Positions 1-8,765 of a stretch of DNA of 8,765 nt are shown here, in pieces. The translations under genes and the position numbers were made by a program. The notes below the pieces were generated by a model, which searched no databases, was not told the DNA's origin, and worked only from the letters and a program-made list of their open reading frames with translations. Origin of the DNA: a virus (taxonomy: Duplodnaviria > Heunggongvirae > Uroviricota > Caudoviricetes); IMG/VR virus record IMGVR_UViG_3300028988_000042; one strand, 5' to 3'. Positions within the stretch are counted from its first letter, which is position 1. Each line of letters opens with the position of its first letter.

Positions 1-53
1 TCGGCAGCACGCCGCGCATCGAGCGCCGCGTTGATTTTCTCCTGCCAGCTCAT
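1..53 (-). CDS. bioF: 8-amino-7-oxononanoate synthase, first ~17 codons only (gene continues beyond window start)
   Basis: Reverse complement of 1-53 reads ATG AGC TGG CAG GAG AAA ATC AAC GCG GCG CTC GAT GCG CGG CGT GCT GCC = [17 protein letters not shown], the E. coli BioF N-terminus as recalled. The ATG (51-53) overlaps the bioB TGA stop (50-52) in an ATGA arrangement, as in the bioBFCD operon. Confidence 0.85.
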
Positions 54-1090
54 AGTGCTGCCGCGTTGTAATATTCGTCAGTGTCCGGGGTCATCAGTGC
101 CTGCTCCAGACGCTGCTGTTGTTCGTTATCCCCTGCCAGCACGGCAGTTTGCTGCGGATTTAGCCCCAGTTTGCGAAACAGTTGCAGGTCTTTATCTTCT
201 TCCGGATTCGGCGTGGTTAGCAGTTTGCAACCGTAGAAAATCGAGTTTGCGCCTGCCATAAAGCACATCGCCTGAGTCTGTTCGTTCATCTGCTCGCGTC
301 CGGCAGAAAGGCGCACGTAAGAGGTCGGCATCATGATCCGCGCGACCGCAATGGTGCGAATAAAATCAAAGGCATCGACATCATCGTTATCCGCCAGCGG
401 CGTGCCTTTCACCTTCACCAGCATGTTGATTGGTACGCTTTCCGGCGGCGTCGGCAGGTTTGCCAGTTGTAGCAATAATCCGGCGCGATCTTTTACCGTT
501 TCGCCTAAGCCCACAATGCCGCCAGAACAGACTTTGATCCCGGCATCGCGCACTTTTTCCAGCGTATCGAGGCGTTCCTGATAAGTGCGGGTGGTGATGA
601 TATTGCCGTAAAACTCCGGCGAGGTGTCCAGGTTGTGGTTGTAGTAATCCAGCCCGGCGTTCGCGAGGCGCTGCGCCTGAGATTCACTCAACGTGCCCAG
701 CGTCATACACGCCTCCAGCCCCATCGCTTTTACCCCCTGCACCATTTGTTCCAGGTACGGCATATCGCGTTCGTGGGGATTCTTCCACGCCGCGCCCATA
801 CAGAAACGCGTCGATCCCGCAGCTTTCGCTTTGCGCGCCGACTCCAGCACCTGTTCAACTTCCATCAACCGCTCGGCTTCCAGCCCGGTTTTGTAGCGCG
901 AGCTTTGCGGGCAGTATTTGCAATCTTCCGGACAAGCTCCGGTCTTAATCGACAGCAAAGTGCTGACCTGCACCTGACGAGGATCGAAATGCTGTCGATG
1001 CACCTGCTGCGCTTCAAACAGCAGATCCAGCAACGGTTTTTCAAATAATTCTGTGACTTGCGACAATGTCCAGCGTGGGCGGTGAGCCAT
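50..1090 (-). CDS. bioB: biotin synthase (radical SAM)
   Basis: 346-aa ORF beginning [64 protein letters not shown], containing the CxxxCxxC radical-SAM motif; matches E. coli BioB in length and sequence as recalled. Confidence 0.97.
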
Positions 1091-2524: not shown

Positions 2525-3001
2525 ATGAAACTCATCAGTAACGATCTGCGCGATGGCGATAAATTGCCGCATCGTCATGTCTTTAACGGCATGGGTTACG
2601 ATGGCGATAATATTTCACCGCATCTGGCGTGGGATGATGTTCCTGCGGGAACGAAAAGTTTTGTTGTCACCTGCTACGACCCGGATGCGCCAACCGGCTC
2701 CGGCTGGTGGCACTGGGTAGTTGTTAACTTACCCGCTGATACCCGCGTATTACCGCAAGGGTTTGGCTCTGGTCTGGTAGCAATGCCAGACGGCGTTTTG
2801 CAGACGCGTACCGACTTTGGTAAAACCGGGTACGATGGCGCAGCACCGCCGAAAGGCGAAACTCATCGCTACATTTTTACCGTTCACGCGCTGGATATAG
2901 AACGTATTGATGTCGATGAAGGTGCCAGCGGCGCGATGGTCGGGTTTAACGTTCATTTCCACTCTCTGGCAAGCGCCTCGATTACTGCGATGTTTAGTTA
3001 A
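2525..3001 (+). CDS. ybhB: PEBP-family (phosphatidylethanolamine-binding / kinase-inhibitor-like) protein
   Basis: 158-aa ORF MKLISNDLRDGDKLPHRHVFNGMGYDGDNISPHLAWDDVPAGTKSFVVTCYDPDAPTGSGWWHW... preceded by AGGAGG 5 nt upstream of the ATG; matches E. coli YbhB, which lies between bioA and attB(lambda) in K-12. Confidence 0.95.
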   Translation: MKLISNDLRDGDKLPHRHVFNGMGYDGDNISPHLAWDDVPAGTKSFVVTCYDPDAPTGSGWWHWVVVNLPADTRVLPQGFGSGLVAMPDGVLQTRTDFGKTGYDGAAPPKGETHRYIFTVHALDIERIDVDEGASGAMVGFNVHFHSLASASITAMFS

Positions 3002-3032: not shown

Positions 3033-3091
3033 TATCACTTAAAGGTATTAAAAACAACTTTTTGTCTTTTTACCTTCCCGTTTCGCTCAAG

Positions 3092-3106
3092 TTAGTATAA
3101 AAAAGT
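3092..3106 (-). other. attR: lambda-type att core (O) of a hybrid attR site; B' arm toward ybhB, P arm toward higher coordinates
   Basis: Minus strand reads TTCA-ACTTTTTTATACTAA-CTTGAGCGAAACGGGAAGG. The core matches lambda GCTTTTTTATACTAA at 14/15 (first base A instead of G), the 3' flank CTTGAGCGAAACG is the E. coli attB B' arm, and the 5' flank TTCA matches the lambda P arm. Confidence 0.8.
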
Positions 3107-3250
3107 TGAATGCGAAACGGTAAAAACCATTAATATCAACGTTTTATAATTGATTCAGTCTAAAAAATAGACTGCATAATGATACAAAACACAACATATC
3201 CAGTCACTATGAATCAACCACTTAGATGGTCTTAGTGACCTGTAACAGAG
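3107..3250 (-). other. lambda-like attP P arm with two inverted arm-type Int-binding-site-like repeats
   Basis: Minus strand reads CTCTGTTACAGGTCACTAAGACCATCTAAGTGGTTGATTCATAGTGACTGGATATGTTGTGTTTTG..., closely resembling the lambda P arm (P1/P2 region) as recalled. CAGTCACTAT at 3201-3210 and the inverted CAGGTCACTAA (reverse complement of 3232-3242) fit the arm-type Int site pattern. Confidence 0.65.
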
Positions 3251-3251
3251 C

Positions 3252-3294
3252 ATTAGCGCAAGGTGATTTTTTTGTCTTCTTGCGCTAATTTTTT
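3252..3294 (+). terminator. rho-independent terminator hairpin, candidate sib/tI-like retroregulator in the att P arm
   Basis: ATTAGCGCAAG (3252-3262) pairs perfectly with CTTGCGCTAAT (3279-3289), 16-nt T-rich loop, followed by a T-run to 3294. It is on the strand an int transcript would use when reading P' to O to P in the circular phage. Confidence 0.55.
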
Positions 3295-3608
3295 GTCAAC
3301 ACACTGGGTTAGCTGAATTTACAACCACGCTCAGTATCTCGATAAGCGCAGAGAAATGATGCAGTGGTGGGCGGACTGGATTGATGAAAAGGTGGAGTGA
3401 TCCGCCTTAACCATTATCGAAGAGCACAAAGCCTTGCAATCCAGTGCAATGCTTTGTGTATACCTATTTTCCCAAATTTGTTTCAGTAATATGTCGATCT
3501 CCAATTATTAGAATGGTACACTAAACAACGTGCGCAATTACAATAATGTAGCGTATAAAAAAACAAAAGCTAATTATATTTTTTAAATAAACATAGTGAA
3601 CTAAATAT

Positions 3609-4595
3609 ATGAGAAATTATAGCATAGATACTATGAGGTTTGTAGCGTGCTTTTTTATAATAGCTGTTCATATAGGTGGGTACCCGCAACAAGGAGAATT
3701 ATTTACAGAGGTATTTAGAGGTGTATCGCGATGGGCTGTGCCATTCTTCTTCCTGGTTACAGGATATTTTTTATCATGCCAAAACAAAAGAAAACTACTA
3801 TTAAGACTTACTAGGATAACATATATAACACTAATATTTAGCGTACTGTTCTTTATTTTTCAACTAACTTTGAACTATAAAGATGGATATTCATTAATTA
3901 TAAGCATCATAGATCCATTTATTTTTATCGGTGGGTCTTATTTCCATTTGTGGTTCTTGCCTTCAATCTTAATAGGTATGATTTCAGTAAGTTACATGAT
4001 AGAAAATGTTTCAGAAAATTTTGGAATCTCTTTAAGTATACTTATTATATTTATAATATGGTGCGTTGATTTCTTTGGTACTGCCTACTTCTCACATGAT
4101 ATATATGAATCAACAAGAACTATTCTATCAATACCAACAATATATATAGGGTATTACTTATACACTAAGAAAGACATAATTATAAAATCTAACGGGAATT
4201 TATTGATTTTATGTATGCTAGCTTCCGTGGTTTTTTCCGTGATTGAGATTCTAATATACAAATCAATATATGGTTCACTTGCCAATATAAGAGAACTACC
4301 TTTATTTTCTGTTATTACTGCTATAATAATACTAATGTTATCTATAAGATCACAAAGCACAAAAGAGACTGTTCTATCAAGGATAGGAAGAGATGATTCT
4401 ATCGTCATATATCTTATTCACCCACTATTTATAGTTTTAATATCAAAGGTGTTTAGGGTTGCTCATGAATATAACGGGATGGCTATTCTTGTGATTACAT
4501 TTATTGTAAGCATTTCGTTTTCATTGTTTGTCAAGAGTAAATTTCCTTCAATATATTCATTTCTTACTGGCGGTTTTATAAAAGAAACAAAATAA
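3609..4595 (+). CDS. acyltransferase family 3 (AT3) integral membrane protein; candidate prophage-encoded O-antigen O-acetyltransferase (lysogenic conversion)
   Basis: 328-aa very hydrophobic ORF with ~10 predicted TM segments. AT3 hallmarks: R-x10-H in the first helix (MRFVACFFIIAVH), VPFFFLVTGYFL (FFxxSG-type motif), and a C-terminal YLIHP motif. Visibly AT-rich relative to flanking DNA. Sits between attR and the tailspike, where P22-like phages carry serotype-conversion genes. Confidence 0.8.
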   Translation: MRNYSIDTMRFVACFFIIAVHIGGYPQQGELFTEVFRGVSRWAVPFFFLVTGYFLSCQNKRKLLLRLTRITYITLIFSVLFFIFQLTLNYKDGYSLIISIIDPFIFIGGSYFHLWFLPSILIGMISVSYMIENVSENFGISLSILIIFIIWCVDFFGTAYFSHDIYESTRTILSIPTIYIGYYLYTKKDIIIKSNGNLLILCMLASVVFSVIEILIYKSIYGSLANIRELPLFSVITAIIILMLSIRSQSTKETVLSRIGRDDSIVIYLIHPLFIVLISKVFRVAHEYNGMAILVITFIVSISFSLFVKSKFPSIYSFLTGGFIKETK

Positions 4596-4605
4596 ACCAT
4601 AAAAC

Positions 4606-4630
4606 ACACCACCATAATATATGGTGGTGT
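4606..4630. terminator. bidirectional stem-loop terminator between the convergent acyltransferase and tailspike genes
   Basis: ACACCACCAT (4606-4615) / ATGGTGGTGT (4621-4630), 10-bp perfect stem with a 5-nt loop; A-rich on the 5' side (a U-tract for the minus-strand transcript) and T-containing on the 3' side. Lies in the 57-bp gap between the two stop codons. Confidence 0.55.
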
Positions 4631-4652
4631 ATCAAATTATTTCTGAGCTGAT

Positions 4653-6551
4653 TTACATGTCATTTTCTGAATTATAAATAAGTACAACCTGACCTGAATA
4701 CGTTGCTTGTGATGACCACCCTGTATCCATATTGTATGGCCTGATCCTTACTTGGCTTGAACTAATTAATCTAGCTTTTATAAGCCATGTATCATCGTTT
4801 GTGTTTGCTGCTACCTCCTGAATTGATACTGTATTTGCTGGCTGGAATTGATCTGGTATTGCTCTTGTTACAACCCTTGACGATCCAGATACTGTTAGTG
4901 TGAAAAACTCCCTACCCGATGTTGATATAGATTGGCAACCTTCAGAAAAGTTGTTTCTTATATCTGGTCTGGATGATCTTCCTTCTGCTATGGTCTTCAT
5001 GCGAATAACGCTAAGTGGCATTACAGTTCCCGTTGTATTACGGAATCTGCAACCTGTTATCTTAACCTGAAACGGATTTGATATAAGATTTATTGCAACT
5101 CCATGTTCAGGTACTAACCAGTTGCATGAGCTAACAGTAAATCTCGCACCGTCTGAGTTTGATTCAATTAAGCATCCATCGAAATAGCATCCAACAAAAA
5201 TATCTGCGTTAGACATTATAACCACACGCCCTTTTGCGCTATCAGCAGACTGATTTGGATAAAAATGACTATTACTAAAAGAATTTGCTCCTTTACGTAA
5301 ATACATAACATCTGCATACTGTGAACCAATAACTAAGTCTGAGAAGTTATTATCATAGTTGTTGATATCCAAGCCAACGCCATCTGTAACGTTAGTTGGG
5401 TAAGAAGCATTCCAATCTGGTTGTTGAAATATAAACGTTTTTCCCACATTTAATTCATGTGGCTGTGAGTCATTAGGTTCAGTCTTTAATCCATAACGCA
5501 AGTATCTTGTCAGTAGACCTCCCAATATAGTCACTTTCAAAAAGTCATCATAAACCCTAATTGCGCCGGAAGCTTTCCAGTTAGCATCGATATTAGGATT
5601 AAATACCACGATGTTTTCAATTGGTCTAGAGCCGTTAACTTTACGAAAATCTAGAACAGGTTCTGTAGAAGGAAATGCTCCAATTGCTAAAAGAGATGGA
5701 TTCAACATAGAAAAATTCAAACAATCTGTTATTGTAAATGGACGTGATACATAGTAAGTGCCCTGAGTCATATCAAAAACAGTGCCACCCAAATTGTACA
5801 TGTTTGGATCTTCTCTATCAGTTGAGTAAGTTGTTTTGCGATTTCTCTTGATTATACTATCTCTCCACAAATCCAGTGCATCAGAGCTGTCGAATGTTGA
5901 ATCGCATGGTTTTGCTCCGTAATTTCTTGGGTCATCTACTGAATACCCAGAAAGAAATCCAACACACACCCATGTTGAGTCTGGAGTGGAGCCTGGCGTA
6001 ACTATATAACCATCAATTGGTATATTTCCTATATATGAATAATACATTCCATCTGAATATTTGAATGATTCGTATTTATTTAATATCACTCCGCCAACTG
6101 ACATATCTCCAGATTTTTTGTATACATATGGCATGTAATCGCTATAAACATTACCACCATATGTGCTCCCGACAATCTTATCTCCATTGTTTGATGAAAT
6201 ATCAACTCGCAACTGATCAGGATCATACTTCAGTAAATTAGGAAAATAGAACTGCTGCACACCATATGCATCATAAACAGCCATAGAGTGGCCTTGCACA
6301 GTTACGAACTTGGCAATCTGTCCGTTATATACAGGGTAACCAGCAGCGTTAATGATGATTGGTTGCGAAACAGGAACGTGAGAGCCGTCTTCGTTCTCCA
6401 CATAAACCTGAATCTGGTTTTCAGGGTTTTCCGGGTCAGTGTCAATTTTACCGATATAAATTTTGCCATTGGCTACGGCTTTAAAAGAACGAGCCATAGT
6501 GAAGAGTTGCGAAGGCATGCTTACCACAACATTTGCGGTGATATCTGACAT
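4653..6551 (-). CDS. tailspike protein: P22 gp9-like N-terminal head-binding domain fused to a divergent receptor-binding domain
   Basis: From ATG 6551 (GGAG 7 nt upstream) the product starts [40 protein letters not shown]...LKYDPDQLR, close to the P22 tailspike N-terminus [40 protein letters not shown]...LKYDPDQY as recalled. After the DPDQ hinge (6213-6224) the remaining ~515 aa are unrelated to P22 gp9 and AT-rich. The track ORF start at 6599 is rejected for the homology-supported ATG with an SD. Confidence 0.9.
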
Positions 6552-6576
6552 TTCATTGCTCCAGACGAATGATATG

Positions 6577-6599
6577 ATGCAATCATGATGTGATTGCAT
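6577..6599. promoter_or_regulatory. perfect inverted repeat, candidate operator for the Mnt-like repressor in the divergent tailspike/mnt intergenic region
   Basis: ATGCAATCA (6577-6585) - TGATG - TGATTGCAT (6591-6599): 9-bp arms, 5-bp spacer. Each arm carries a TTGCAT (-35-like) hexamer, one per strand. Located 26 bp upstream of the tailspike start codon and 74 bp upstream of the mnt-like start codon. Confidence 0.4.
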
Positions 6600-6672
6600 A
6601 CCGAAATGGTACTATTGAGTATTTATCCAGTAGGTTACGATGCCATTCCACCCAACTGGTGAGGCATCAAGG

Positions 6673-6933
6673 ATGTACAGCAAATACGACGAGGCGCAGT
6701 TTCACTTGAGACTTCCGCATGAACTCCACGCGAAAATTAAACAGCGCGCGAAGATGAATAACAGGTCGCTGAACTCAGAGATAATTGCAGCGATTGAAGA
6801 ATCATTGGCTAAACAAAGCTCTGCATCAGTTTACATTGACGATGCAGAGCGTATGGCAGAACAACAATCTGATATGGTTAAGAAAATTGTCTTTGATACG
6901 CTCAAGGAGCTATATAAAAAAGACAGCAACTAA
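6673..6933 (+). CDS. mnt: Mnt-like ribbon-helix-helix (Arc/MetJ superfamily) repressor
   Basis: MYSKYDEAQFHLRLPHELHAKIKQRAKMNNRSLNSEIIAAIEESL...DAERMAEQQSDMVKKIVFDTLKELYKK aligns with P22 Mnt (...HFNFRMPMEVREKLKFRAEANGRSMNSELLQIVQDAL...DAERLADEQSELVKKMVFDTLKDLYKK) as recalled. Start chosen at ATG 6673 (GAGG 8 nt upstream, length matches Mnt); the in-frame ATG at 6640 is an alternative. Confidence 0.85.
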   Translation: MYSKYDEAQFHLRLPHELHAKIKQRAKMNNRSLNSEIIAAIEESLAKQSSASVYIDDAERMAEQQSDMVKKIVFDTLKELYKKDSN

Positions 6934-6953
6934 CCATCCATTACGGAGGATTT

Positions 6954-7031
6954 ATGCAAAGAGATATGATGAATATTACATTCTACATATTTGGTTTTTG
7001 CACTTTCCTGGTGTTTGCAAAGCTATTCTGA
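6954..7031 (+). CDS. hypothetical 25-aa hydrophobic micro-protein (single predicted TM helix)
   Basis: ATG 6954 with GGAGG at 6945-6949 (4-nt spacer); translation MQRDMMNITFYIFGFCTFLVFAKLF then TGA. Directly downstream of mnt on the same strand and overlaps the 3' end of the convergent ejection-protein gene by 9 bp. No homology evidence; could be fortuitous. Confidence 0.2.
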   Translation: MQRDMMNITFYIFGFCTFLVFAKLF

Positions 7032-8531
7032 CAACGCATCAGACTTAGCCCCCTGCGTCATAGCGTTAATTGCCTTTTGTGCCTGCTGCATGGCTTTCTC
7101 AAACGCTGTTGATCCGCGTGGGGTGTTTGCCATTCGGAGCATTGCATTTCTGAATGGCTCGCTCTCATAGGCGCGAGTGAGAAGTCCGTAGCTTACTGCT
7201 GCGCCAGTTGTCGCCGGGTTCATTGCCGTCCCATACCCAATAATGAACGGGATAGTTTGCTGCCCTGTGGGTGTTGTTACTGCCGCTTTTGCAGCCTGCT
7301 GCGTGGATTGCAGGTAGTTTTTCAATCCTTTCAGATAAGCGGCTTCCTGACCTTTAAATGTGATGCCAGTCTGGTTTTGCAGGATGTTAAGCTGCCGAAG
7401 GAACTGGTCAGGGGAACCACCTGATTTCTCCATCGCCTTTCCAATGATGCCATTGCGCATTTGCGCCCTGCCAACACGACCAACTGAGTTATACAGAGTC
7501 TTAATTTCCGATTTGTTCTTGCTGAATAGCATGTTGTTGACAACTTCCGGCGTAAGATCGCCTTTCATGAGAACATTCTTCAGCCTGGTATTCTTTAGTT
7601 TCGCCGCTTCGTCAGCGTAAACGGCATTGGCCTGCTGATATTTACGGAGAGTATCGCTGCCAAGATTCTGACCAATGGCACCATTGATATCGTCGGTCAT
7701 TGCCTTGTAAACTCGCTGAATGGCAGCATCGGAACGGTTTGGTAATACCGGTCGCTCACCCTTCACGTCCATTCTGAACTGGCTGCGCAGGTCGCTTAAT
7801 TGCTTCAAATCCAGATTTACCGGACCATCAGGGCCAGCATTGCGAACAAGCTCATCACGATATGACTGAAGTTTTGAAATTGTCTCGTTATCAGCTACCT
7901 TACCAAGCTTCTGCAGATTAGATATCTCAGTATCAATCTGCTGAATTGCTCGCGCAGGCTGAATGTTTACTCCAGCCATAGCATTCTGAACCTGCTCCAG
8001 TCGATTACCGGCGGCACGACGAATTCCTGATGTTTTCGTTTTAAGGCTGCCAATAACAACCGCTGGATCATACTCGCCGAATTTATCAGCAAATCTCTGC
8101 ACCAACTGACTTCTCGCTTCCTGTTGCGTTGCTCTCATTCCGCTTGTGCCAGCCAGGGGAATATTTTCTGCTGTAGTCTGCGCCATTTTCCCGACGCGGG
8201 AAGTAGGCTGTAACAGGTCTGTGGTGTGCAGAGGCACTCCTTCACGCTCTGCAAATCTGATAGCTTGCTGCGCTTCTGGTGCAATAGCACCACGAACGCC
8301 ACGATAAGCAGCGCCTAATCCACGTCCGGCAGCGTTAATAGCGCCGCCAGCCAGAACGCCAACGCCTAAATCGGTGGCGAGTGCTTCCGCATCATCTTTC
8401 GCACTATTTGCAGCAAGTGATCCAACTGCGTTTTCAGCGAGAAGGCGAGTTGCCCCCTGAGCAATTCGACCAGCAAGTGTTGGTGCCTGTGCTGCCGCTC
8501 TCTCAACGCCAGCAGGAGTGAGGTAAGGCAA
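7023..8531 (-). CDS. phage virion internal / DNA-ejection-type protein (position equivalent to P22 gene 16); true 5' end uncertain
   Basis: Long ORF with Ala/Gly/Gln/Lys-rich composition typical of P22-like ejection proteins, located immediately upstream of the immunity-I/tailspike region on the tailspike strand. The listed start is a TTG with no good SD, and the frame stays open with protein-like translation up to a TAA at 8760-8762, so the real start is probably upstream. Confidence 0.6.
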   Translation of the reverse strand: MPYLTPAGVERAAAQAPTLAGRIAQGATRLLAENAVGSLAANSAKDDAEALATDLGVGVLAGGAINAAGRGLGAAYRGVRGAIAPEAQQAIRFAEREGVPLHTTDLLQPTSRVGKMAQTTAENIPLAGTSGMRATQQEARSQLVQRFADKFGEYDPAVVIGSLKTKTSGIRRAAGNRLEQVQNAMAGVNIQPARAIQQIDTEISNLQKLGKVADNETISKLQSYRDELVRNAGPDGPVNLDLKQLSDLRSQFRMDVKGERPVLPNRSDAAIQRVYKAMTDDINGAIGQNLGSDTLRKYQQANAVYADEAAKLKNTRLKNVLMKGDLTPEVVNNMLFSKNKSEIKTLYNSVGRVGRAQMRNGIIGKAMEKSGGSPDQFLRQLNILQNQTGITFKGQEAAYLKGLKNYLQSTQQAAKAAVTTPTGQQTIPFIIGYGTAMNPATTGAAVSYGLLTRAYESEPFRNAMLRMANTPRGSTAFEKAMQQAQKAINAMTQGAKSDALSE

Positions 8532-8765
8532 TGCTTCAGCAAATACCCTTCCCTCTGTCGTTTGTGGAGTCAGCGCGCCTTGCTGAAAGCCAAAGTCCTG
8601 CTCTAATCCCTGCGTTGTTACTCGTGGCGCTGGTTGATATGTACCATCGCCAATACCGAGTTTACCGCCAGCCCAAGTGAAGTGGTCAACAAAAACTGGC
8701 CACCGAGTTAGAGTTTTTTCCAGTATCGATTTTCCGATTCGTTTGGTGGTAACCCACCATTATAT

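What the first reader, a model, noticed from the sequence alone, without database searches (positions are those of the whole stretch)
3609..6551. AT-rich cassette pairing an AT3 acetyltransferase with a non-P22 tailspike receptor-binding domain
The acyltransferase gene (3609-4595) and the receptor-binding part of the tailspike (4653 to about 6212) are convergent, separated only by a shared hairpin, and both are markedly more AT-rich than the tailspike head-binding segment, the ejection gene and the host DNA. This looks like a receptor-recognition enzyme and a receptor-modifying enzyme acquired as one unit. By analogy with Sf6 Oac and P22 Gtr, the acetyltransferase would alter the O-antigen that the tailspike recognises, giving serotype conversion and exclusion of related phages. 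Which polysaccharide is targeted cannot be read from the sequence.
Basis: partly seen in the sequence, partly recalled or inferred. Interest (0 to 1): 0.75.

Follow-up and report, generated by a model that had tools for sequence, protein, structure and literature searches.

The report
Prophage tailspike plus O-antigen acyltransferase module
This is the surviving end of a decayed P22-like prophage in E. coli, carrying a sugar-cutting tailspike next to a membrane acyltransferase in the slot where phage Sf6 keeps its O-antigen acetylase. It is an ordinary kind of module, but with new sequences that track the emerging OX18 serogroup.

Summary

The two genes converge on a 57-bp spacer holding one strong hairpin. 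GC is 29.7% (AT3), 37.2% (receptor-binding part), 43.1% (head-binding part), 50.8% (ejection gene) and 52-56% (host genes).

The layout copies Sf6 (tailspike, oac, int/att), but the AT3 is not an Oac orthologue; its nearest relative of any kind is 35% identical.

The pair sits at three integration sites (att-lambda, dacD, argW) in different phage backbones. Five of the seven complete genomes that carry it have the rare OX18 O-antigen cluster (12 of 5426 genomes; p = 4e-13). OX18 O-antigen is therefore the probable target.

"Acquired as one unit" is only partly supported. The AT3 also pairs with a diverged tailspike allele, that allele occurs without the AT3, and relatives of the receptor-binding part are AT-rich wherever they occur.

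In this window the prophage is a roughly 5.6-kb stump cut by an IS element. This is a new member of a known kind. The function is inferred, not shown.

The parts
3092..3106 (.). att-lambda core (TTAGTATAAAAAAGT, 14 of 15 matches to the reverse complement of the lambda core GCTTTTTTATACTAA). This is the bio-proximal prophage end (attR).
   Evidence: single match, none expected by chance. The core sequence is from my own knowledge. Host ybhB lies directly to the left. Lambda and 434 attP-region homology covers window ~3088-3459.
3317..3400 (+). Stub of the last 28 codons of an Sf6-type integrase gene (IYNHAQYLDKRREMMQWWADWIDEKVE*). It is conserved junction sequence at the left edge of the block shared between prophages.
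   Evidence: translation; 94.8% identical to the Sf6 int 3' end, L004 2196-2272; aligns with the end of the intact int in L013; RefSeq annotates a partial CDS there.
3473..3608 (+). AT-rich (25% GC) region upstream of AT3, unique to the module. The presumed promoter lies here, but none was found at consensus stringency.
   Evidence: fECg99.1 homology ends at 3472; GC; no + strand promoter-like site in 3473-3608.
3609..4595 (+). AT3-only membrane acyltransferase, 328 aa, carrying R10-X10-H21 and R66-x-x-R69.
   Evidence: motif definitions from PMC9833829.
4603..4633 (.). G+C-rich hairpin in the 57-bp convergent spacer. It is terminator-like for the tailspike (late) transcript and may also stop AT3 transcription.
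4653..6210 (-). Tailspike receptor-binding part (residues ~115-632). Residues ~208-632 are modelled as a right-handed beta-helix with a C-terminal beta domain. Residues 116-207 are modelled at low confidence.
6211..6551 (-). P22-type head-binding (particle-attachment) domain of the tailspike.
6640..6933 (+). Mnt/Arc-family repressor gene (immI region). RefSeq starts it at 6673. It is part of the block shared with the dacD prophage, up to 6906.
7023..8677 (-). gp16-like DNA-transfer (ejection) gene. It is truncated at its 5' end by the IS junction and lacks about 114 codons.
8678..8765 (.). End of an ISEc52 (IS3-family) element that has deleted the rest of the prophage.

Best explanation
Window 3092-8677 is the bio-proximal (attR) end of a P22-like (Lederbergvirus-type) prophage integrated at att-lambda between ybhB and ybhC. 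An ISEc52-mediated deletion has reduced it to about 5.6 kb.

The finding is this phage type's receptor module. One part is a trimeric-tailspike gene: its conserved N-terminal domain plugs into the virion, and its exchangeable beta-helix part binds and most likely cleaves an O-antigen. The other part, in the moron slot between tailspike and int/att, is an AT3-only inner-membrane acyltransferase. It would pass an acyl group, most likely acetyl from acetyl-CoA, through its pore via the R-X10-H and RXXR residues onto that same O-antigen.

In a lysogen this changes the receptor, so phages with the same tailspike specificity adsorb poorly. That is seroconversion and superinfection exclusion, as with Sf6 Oac.

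The probable target is the E. coli OX18 O-antigen.

Shown here: gene identities, motifs, fold, linkage, mobility between backbones, and host association. Inferred: acetyl donor, acceptor sugar, glycosidase activity, exclusion phenotype, and expression. In this window's genome only the AT3 could still matter to the cell. The tailspike is a relic, or a reservoir for recombination.
For: - AT3: PF01757 at 98 bits. R10-X10-H21 and R66xxR69 are present; H21 is invariant across 26 homologues (motif definitions in PMC9833829). The AF2 model has pLDDT 91 and about ten long helices.
- Same order as Sf6: tailspike, terminator, oac, int. In L012, L013, L017, L025 and L027 the AT3 sits directly between the tailspike and an Sf6-type int at argW.
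- Linkage: the AT3 is found in exactly the 7 complete genomes that carry this receptor-binding part. All 19 further fetched contigs pair it with a tailspike of this family, across three att sites.
- A 3.57-kb block, window 3340-6906, is 99.5% identical between two prophages that otherwise differ at the nucleotide level.
- Host association: 5 of 7 carriers, plus the one carrier of the sister allele, have the OX18 O-antigen cluster, which is present in 12 of 5426 genomes. Fisher p = 4e-13 and 7e-16. OX18 strains carry the module at three different att sites: JNE170426, JNE181771 and JNE151350 (PMC8084502 and PMC10793325).
- The OX18 cluster encodes no acyltransferase of its own.
- The closest AT3 relative (35% identical) also converges on a phage tail-fibre-like gene, and another relative lies in a polysaccharide locus.
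- Lederbergvirus prophage tailspikes are known to track the host O-serogroup (PMC10408124).
Against: - No biochemical or phenotypic data exist for either protein.
- The AT3 is an orphan: at most 35% identity to anything else, and 27% over 95 residues to Sf6 Oac. Substrate therefore cannot be transferred by homology, and AT3-only enzymes also acetylate ECA and other glycans.
- No consensus sigma-70 promoter or clear Shine-Dalgarno sequence lies upstream (sequence reading).
- Two carriers are not OX18: Ec40743 has an O28ab-type cluster and PM22 another cluster.
- 7 of the 12 OX18 genomes lack the AT3.
- The OX18 genomes are not phylogenetically independent, so the p-value overstates the evidence. 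The three att sites are the better argument.
- The tailspike allele in fECg99.1 does without the AT3.
Confidence: 0.6

Rival explanations
1. Neighbours by architecture only. The slot between tailspike and att is the usual landing place for morons in P22-like phages. The AT3 sits there without any functional tie to the tailspike's receptor. It acylates another envelope glycan (enterobacterial common antigen, capsule, colanic acid) or some unrelated acceptor.
For: - Relatives are annotated YiaH/WecH-like by some sources.
- The AT3 is an orphan with no informative close homologue.
- The receptor-binding family occurs without it in lytic phages and in fECg99.1.
- The tailspike and the AT3 segment show different divergence between backbones.
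- AT-richness of the receptor-binding part does not depend on the AT3.
Against: - The AT3 is never seen beside any other tailspike family. It stays linked across two diverged alleles of this one family, three att sites and several immI layouts.
- Every characterised gene in this slot of P22-like phages modifies the O-antigen: Sf6 and Sf101 oac, and P22 gtrABC (PMC8787464).
Confidence: 0.2
2. Relic without present function. In this genome the whole segment is decaying prophage DNA. Both genes survive only because they lie farthest from the IS that is eating the prophage from the int side.
For: - There is a nested deletion series, all abutting ISEc52. JNE170426 keeps phage DNA up to the portal gene, Ec40743 and PM22 up to the capsid gene, and the window only up to gp16.
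- int is truncated, and a DUF2824 gene is a pseudogene in JNE170426.
- The remnant persists in two non-OX18 hosts.
- No recognisable promoter lies upstream of the AT3.
- Of the four AT3 substitutions between backbones, two are non-synonymous.
Against: - The AT3 reading frame is intact in every copy examined: 7 complete genomes and 19 contigs, at 99.1-100% protein identity.
- Intact prophages carrying the same module exist, for example the roughly 40-kb prophage with int at dacD-sbcB in JNE181771.
- Relic status of the prophage does not stop a moron from being expressed.
Confidence: 0.15
3. The tailspike targets a surface polysaccharide other than the OX18 O-antigen, such as a capsule or a glycan shared by several serogroups. 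The OX18 association would then reflect clonal relatedness of the hosts.
For: - Two carriers have other O-antigen clusters.
- Several OX18 carriers belong to related phylogroup B1 lineages, ST205 and ST847 (PMC8084502).
- The best structural matches include capsule depolymerases and lyases as well as O-antigen tailspikes.
Against: - Both non-OX18 carriers hold only the IS-truncated remnant at att-lambda. This fits O-antigen replacement after the prophage was stranded.
- Within OX18 the module arrived at least three times, at different att sites, and a fourth prophage with the sister allele is also in an OX18 host.
Confidence: 0.1

Closest known systems
Shigella phage Sf6 gene 14 (tailspike endorhamnosidase) with gene 15 oac (O-antigen acetylase)
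   Same: Same phage type. Same gene order and orientation: convergent tailspike and AT3-only acyltransferase with a terminator between them, next to int/att. The head-binding domain is about 86% identical at the DNA level. Both acyltransferases are about 330-aa AT3-only proteins carrying the TMH1 His and the RXXR motif.
   Different: The AT3 is not an orthologue: 27% identity over 95 residues, E 2e-4. The receptor-binding part has no sequence similarity to Sf6 and only shares the general beta-helix fold (TM 0.3-0.35). The host glycan is probably E. coli OX18 rather than S. flexneri Y/X O-antigen. In this window int has been lost and att is lambda-type.
Salmonella phage P22 gene 9 tailspike with gtrABC
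   Same: Same virion-attachment domain (PF09008). Same idea of an O-antigen-modifying conversion module placed between tailspike and att.
   Different: P22 modifies by glucosylation with three Gtr proteins, not by an AT3 acyltransferase. The receptor-binding part here is unrelated in sequence to the P22 endorhamnosidase.
Serogroup-specific exchangeable tailspike domains of E. coli phages (Lederberg-, Kayfuna-, Gamaleya- and Kuttervirus; PMC10408124)
   Same: This receptor-binding family is found behind P22-type (PF09008), T7-type (PF03906) and PF18668 adaptors. It is 70% identical in gp17 of the lytic Kayfunavirus P762. That is the cross-genus exchange pattern the paper describes.
   Different: This subtype has no characterised member and no assigned serogroup in that work. 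OX18 is assigned here only by prophage-host association.
AT3 family O-antigen acetyltransferases OafA/OafB (Salmonella) and WecH (E. coli ECA)
   Same: PF01757 domain, R-X10-H and RXXR motifs, and about ten transmembrane helices.
   Different: OafA and OafB carry a periplasmic SGNH domain that this protein lacks. WecH acts on ECA. Identity to all of them is too low to transfer substrate specificity.

Membership tests
Acyltransferase-3 (AT3, PF01757) | Pfam profile match above the gathering score over the whole domain | tested here: met
   98.3 bits against a cut-off of 31; residues 3-306 match profile positions 1-322 of 326.
Acyltransferase-3 (AT3, PF01757) | R-X10-H motif in TMH1 (Arg14/His25 in OafB) | tested here: met
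   R10 and H21 with ten residues between them (sequence). H21 is invariant in alignments of 20 and 26 homologues that include Sf6 Oac. Definition from PMC9833829.
Acyltransferase-3 (AT3, PF01757) | RXXR motif at the cytoplasmic face of TMH3 | tested here: met
   R66-L-T-R69 (sequence). It aligns with the KRARR stretch of Sf6 Oac. Definition from PMC9833829.
Acyltransferase-3 (AT3, PF01757) | Ten-transmembrane-helix fold | tested here: inconclusive
   The AF2 model is all-helical with about ten long helices, pLDDT 91.1 and pTM 0.91. Foldseek against PDB found no significant match to compare with, and the AlphaFold library was unavailable.
Phage-encoded O-antigen O-acetyltransferase (Sf6 Oac type) | Gene located between tailspike and int/att of a P22-like temperate phage | tested here: met
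   Window order is att, AT3, tailspike. In L012, L013 and L025 the order is int, AT3, tailspike, as in Sf6.
Phage-encoded O-antigen O-acetyltransferase (Sf6 Oac type) | Orthology to Oac (close sequence similarity) | tested here: not met
   27% identity over 95 residues, E 2e-4. No relative among 50,697 phage records.
Phage-encoded O-antigen O-acetyltransferase (Sf6 Oac type) | Acetylation of the host O-antigen and a change of serotype or phage sensitivity | not testable with these tools
   Needs NMR or MS of LPS and adsorption assays.
P22-like tailspike | N-terminal head-binding domain (PF09008) | tested here: met
   220 bits, full profile 1-113. PDB matches to Sf6, P22 and HK620 N-terminal domains.
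P22-like tailspike | Right-handed parallel beta-helix receptor-binding/enzymatic domain | tested here: met
P22-like tailspike | Trimer with glycan-cleaving activity on the host O-antigen | not testable with these tools
   Only a monomer was modelled, and the catalytic residues were not identified.
Intrinsic (bidirectional) terminator | G+C-rich stem followed by a U-run, on each strand | tested here: inconclusive
   Met on the - strand (tailspike): 14 pairs followed by a T-rich tail. On the + strand the same stem is followed by ATCAAATTATTTCT, which the scan does not call.

The most novel reading that the evidence does not exclude
The AT3 and this tailspike family form a co-evolving receptor/counter-receptor pair specific to the emerging STEC serogroup OX18.

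The two tailspike alleles are about 60% identical in the enzymatic part. Both are found in OX18-associated prophages, with or without the AT3. They would differ in whether they tolerate the AT3-made acyl group. One allele would then be an escape variant that overcomes the exclusion imposed by the other phage's conversion gene.

In that case OX18 would exist as acylated and non-acylated subtypes: 5 of 12 complete OX18 genomes carry the AT3. That would have consequences for antisera and phage-based typing of a serogroup that commercial sera do not cover.
Probability: 0.15. Interest if true: 0.5.

Novelty: new member of a known kind. Interest (0 to 1): 0.3.

Why it matters
The arrangement itself is textbook lysogenic conversion, as in Sf6 oac and P22 gtr. 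What is new lies in the particulars.

- The acyltransferase is an orphan, and the tailspike receptor-binding family is uncharacterised.
- Host association ties both to OX18, an O-serogroup of LEE-negative Shiga-toxin-producing E. coli that has caused fatal haemolytic-uraemic syndrome and that commercial O1-O188 antisera do not detect (PMC8084502).
- If the inference holds, the tailspike domain is a ready-made OX18-specific binding reagent.
- The AT3 would predict an acylated OX18 subtype, which matters for typing sera and for phage susceptibility.

For phage biology this is one more well-documented case of a receptor module shuttling between integration modules and between temperate and lytic phage genera.

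Tried and rejected
- Foldseek of the AT3 model against PDB gave only chance-level transporter hits (best E 0.2). The AlphaFold-database library was not available. The ten-helix fold therefore could not be compared with a reference.
- NCBIfam gave only sub-threshold VanT membrane-domain hits for the AT3 and nothing for the tailspike. This is uninformative beyond the AT3 superfamily.
- Rfam found no RNA family anywhere in the window.
- The consensus promoter scan found no + strand site in 3473-3608, so expression of the AT3 is unsupported by sequence.
- The top PHROG hit for the tailspike is labelled "colanic acid degradation". I rejected it as evidence for substrate because the match covers only the head-binding domain, residues 17-147.
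- I looked for a published OX18 O-antigen structure or phage P762 host serotype. The held library has nothing on either. The hits in PMC13209904 were for "OX188", not OX18.
- A search for the exact IS junction (8677/8678) in complete genomes found none, so the source strain is not among the 5426 complete assemblies.
- I first treated shared AT-richness as evidence of co-acquisition, then rejected it. Relatives of the receptor-binding part are AT-rich relative to their genomes without any AT3 nearby: 41% against about 50% in P762, and 40% in fECg99.1.
Full report
**What is in the window**

The left third is E. coli chromosome:
- bioB, 50-1090 (-)
- bioA, to 2466 (+)
- ybhB, 2525-3001 (+)

These were identified from Pfam and RefSeq annotation of identical genomes.

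At 3092-3106 lies TTAGTATAAAAAAGT. This is one mismatch from the reverse complement of the lambda att core, which I recall from my own knowledge. It is the only such match in the window, and none is expected by chance. Lambda and 434 attP-flank homology follows it, to about 3459.

From there to 8677 the DNA is the late-operon end of a P22-like prophage:
- an AT3 acyltransferase, 3609-4595 (+)
- a tailspike, 4653-6551 (-)
- an Mnt/Arc repressor, 6640-6933 (+)
- a gp16-like ejection gene, from 7023 (-)

These calls rest.

At 8677/8678 the ejection gene is cut by the end of an ISEc52 element.

Complete genomes show a nested series of the same IS-adjacent deletion. JNE170426 retains phage DNA up to the portal gene. 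Ec40743 and PM22 retain it up to the capsid gene. In all of them the truncated lambda-type int lies next to ybhC. The window's junction is in none of the 5426 complete genomes. The source is therefore a further-decayed relative. The prophage in this window is a stump of about 5.6 kb.

**Check of the observation**

Every descriptive claim holds.
- The 328-aa protein matches PF01757 at 98.3 bits (cut-off 31) over essentially the whole profile.
- The tailspike matches only PF09008 (head binding), on its first 113 residues.
- By sequence it matches solved Sf6, P22 and HK620 tailspikes only over about the first 120 residues.
- DNA similarity to other P22-like phages spans only about 6206-6568.
- The stop codons are 57 bp apart.
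- The spacer holds an 11-bp perfect stem (14 pairs with G-T) at 4603-4633, with dG -17.5 kcal/mol, z -3.4, and 0 of 200 shuffles folding as well.
- The consensus scan accepts the hairpin as a terminator for the tailspike strand. On the AT3 strand the T-run is weak.

| Segment | GC | GC3 |
|---|---|---|
| AT3 | 29.7% | 24.6% |
| Tailspike 4653-6212 | 37.2% | 27.3% |
| Head-binding part | 43.1% | 42.2% |
| mnt | 42.9% | 48.0% |
| gp16-like | 50.8% | 45.5% |
| Host genes (bioB, bioA, ybhB) | 52-56% | 52-64% |

**The acyltransferase**

It is AT3-only, with no SGNH domain. It carries both motifs that define functional AT3 domains (PMC9833829):
- R-X10-H in TMH1, here R10 and H21
- RXXR at TMH3, here R66-L-T-R69

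H21 is invariant in alignments of 20 and 26 homologues. The AF2 model is confident (pLDDT 91, pTM 0.91) and all-helical, with about ten long helices. No solved structure exists for comparison.

The protein is an orphan:
- Apart from 99% copies in E. coli, its nearest relatives among 5.8 billion proteins are 35% identical.
- None of 50,697 phage records has a relative.
- Identity to Sf6 Oac is 27% over 95 residues.

It is therefore a family member but not an Oac orthologue, and its substrate cannot be transferred by homology.

Two contextual hints point to surface glycans and to phage receptor-binding genes. The 35% relative P0019 is also convergent with a 1187-aa phage tail-fibre-like gene. 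Another relative lies among glycosyltransferase and Wzy genes.

**The tailspike receptor-binding part**

Only 17 protein clusters are related. They sit behind different virion adaptors: PF09008 (P22-like), PF03906 (T7-like) and PF18668. One is gp17 of the lytic Kayfunavirus P762, at 70% identity. This is the cross-genus exchange of serogroup-specific domains described for E. coli phages (PMC10408124).

The AF2 model has mean pLDDT 77.7. Residues 93-519 of the model are mostly above 80, while the first 92 residues are unreliable. It is a right-handed beta-helix.
- Foldseek ranks the Sf6, Det7 and HK620 tailspikes at the top.

The fold is glycan-active. Whether the enzyme is a hydrolase or a lyase is open.

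**Relation to known systems**

The layout copies Sf6: gene 14 tailspike, terminator, convergent oac, then int. In several contigs (L012, L013, L017, L025, L027) the present AT3 lies directly between the tailspike and an Sf6-type integrase, beside yfdC/mlaA, which is the argW site.

Even in the window a 28-codon stub of that integrase survives at 3317-3400. Characterised genes in this slot of P22-like phages all modify the O-antigen: Sf6 and Sf101 oac, and P22 gtrABC (PMC8787464).

**Are the two genes one unit?**

Evidence for linkage:
- In complete genomes the AT3 occurs in exactly the seven genomes that carry this receptor-binding sequence.
- Nineteen further contigs all pair it with a tailspike of this family.
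- The pairs lie at three integration sites (att-lambda, dacD-sbcB, argW) and with several different immI regions and ejection genes.
- The att-lambda prophage and the dacD prophage of JNE181771 share only window 3340-6906, at 99.5% identity. Nothing else is shared at the nucleotide level.

Evidence against a single indivisible acquisition:
- The same AT3 (99.1% identical) is paired in L024 and L030 with a second tailspike allele that is 62% identical over residues 234-632.
- That allele sits at att-lambda in strain fECg99.1 with no AT3, only 112 bp of unrelated spacer.
- Within the shared block the tailspike and adjoining DNA show 0 differences in 2073 bp, whereas 3420-4652 shows 6. By my arithmetic, the chance that all six fall there under a uniform rate is about 0.003.
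- Relatives of the receptor-binding part are AT-rich compared with their own genomes even without an AT3: 41% against about 50% in P762, and 40% in fECg99.1.
- The AT3's 29.7% GC matches that of O-antigen gene clusters. The OX18 cluster is 29.3%.

The fair summary is that this is a tightly linked module that recombines as a block but also internally. Common origin of the two genes is not shown.

**Which polysaccharide?**

The window alone cannot say, but the hosts can.
- JNE170426 (module at att-lambda) is OX18:H2 and JNE181771 (module at dacD) is OX18:H19 (PMC10793325).
- L013 is contig BNCX01000003, which belongs to JNE151350, OX18:H19, with the module at argW (table in PMC8084502).
- I took the six genes between galF and gnd of JNE181771 as a probe. 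Twelve of 5426 complete genomes carry this cluster.
- Five of the seven module carriers are among them, as is fECg99.1 with the sister allele.
- Fisher's exact p is 4e-13, or 7e-16 if fECg99.1 is included.

The genomes are not independent, so the three separate att sites in OX18 hosts are the stronger argument.

The two exceptions are Ec40743 (O28ab-type cluster) and PM22 (a different cluster). Both hold only the IS-truncated remnant. This fits replacement of the O-antigen locus after the prophage was stranded.

The OX18 cluster has three glycosyltransferases and no acyltransferase. Seven OX18 genomes lack the AT3. Any acylation would therefore be an accessory, phage-borne modification.

I found no published OX18 structure.

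**Mechanism proposed**

During infection, the tailspike's beta-helix binds, and probably cleaves, OX18 O-antigen to bring the virion to the outer membrane. In the lysogen, the AT3 moves an acyl group from cytoplasmic acyl-CoA through its pore onto the O-unit. The R-X10-H and RXXR residues serve as in the OafB model (PMC9833829). The altered epitope reduces adsorption of phages with this tailspike specificity.

Gene identities, motifs, fold, linkage and host association are shown. Donor, acceptor, enzymatic activity, expression and the exclusion phenotype are inferred.

In this particular genome the virion genes are gone. Only the AT3 could still act, and the tailspike gene is a relic or a recombination donor.

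**Rivals**

- The genes are neighbours by architecture only, with the AT3 acting on another glycan (0.2).
- The segment is a relic with no present function in this genome (0.15).
- The tailspike targets a glycan other than the OX18 O-antigen (0.1).

Each is set out with its evidence in the Rival explanations section.

**Novelty and score**

The kind is well known: a seroconverting module of P22-like phages. The members are new. They are an orphan AT3 and an uncharacterised tailspike subtype, assigned here by association to OX18, an emerging STEC serogroup that commercial antisera miss (PMC8084502). A specialist would not be surprised by the arrangement. The OX18 link and the paired tailspike alleles are useful, testable leads. 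Interest is 0.3.

Noticed in passing
window 8677-8765: The gp16-like ejection gene is cut at 8677/8678 by the end of an ISEc52 (IS3-family) element. No complete E. coli genome has this junction. Related strains carry the same IS abutting the portal gene (JNE170426) or the capsid gene (Ec40743, PM22). This is a nested series of IS-adjacent deletions consuming the prophage from the int side.
   Followed up: yes
window 3317-3400 (+): This encodes the last 28 codons and the stop of an Sf6-type integrase (IYNHAQYLDKRREMMQWWADWIDEKVE*), stranded next to a lambda-type att arm. The same stretch lies beside attP in lambda and 434 records. It also marks the left edge of the block shared with dacD and argW prophages. 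It probably serves as a homologous boundary sequence for swapping integration modules.
   Followed up: partly
window 3254-3295: A hairpin (tagcgcaag ... cttgcgcta) followed by a T-run lies inside the stretch homologous to the lambda and 434 attP flank. The phage 434 record lists a terminator among the features under its match to window ~3092-3459. It looks like the lambda tI/sib region, separated from int in the prophage state.
   Followed up: no
window 4653-6725 versus 3420-4652, compared with L002: Between the att-lambda and dacD prophages the tailspike and adjoining DNA are identical over 2073 bp, while the AT3 segment has 6 differences, including two amino-acid changes (L96S, S317L). This suggests a more recent exchange of the tailspike than of the AT3, or looser constraint on the AT3.
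   Followed up: partly
L003 (fECg99.1) 3472-5472; L024 and L030 7045-8940: A second tailspike allele is identical to the window's through residue 233 and about 60% identical beyond it. It occurs without the AT3 in an OX18 strain, and with the AT3 at dacD in other assemblies of unknown serotype.
   Followed up: partly
L005 22337-23341 and 26315-34946 (JNE181771): The OX18 O-antigen cluster has six genes at 29.3% GC: three glycosyltransferases and three unnamed membrane-protein-sized genes. Just beyond galF lies a GlcNAc-P-P-Und 4-epimerase gene, and between ugd and wzzB an NAD-dependent epimerase gene. There is no acyltransferase, and I found no published structure.
   Followed up: no
L031 2030-7198: The closest non-E. 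coli relative of the AT3 (35% identity, metagenomic contig) is likewise convergent with a large (1187 aa, cut by the contig end) phage tail-fibre-like gene, next to a UmuD-like phage gene.
   Followed up: partly
L001 28114-28569 (JNE170426): The DUF2824 (gp14-like) gene of the remnant prophage carries an internal stop in JNE170426 but is intact in Ec40743 and PM22. This is further independent decay of the remnant.
   Followed up: no
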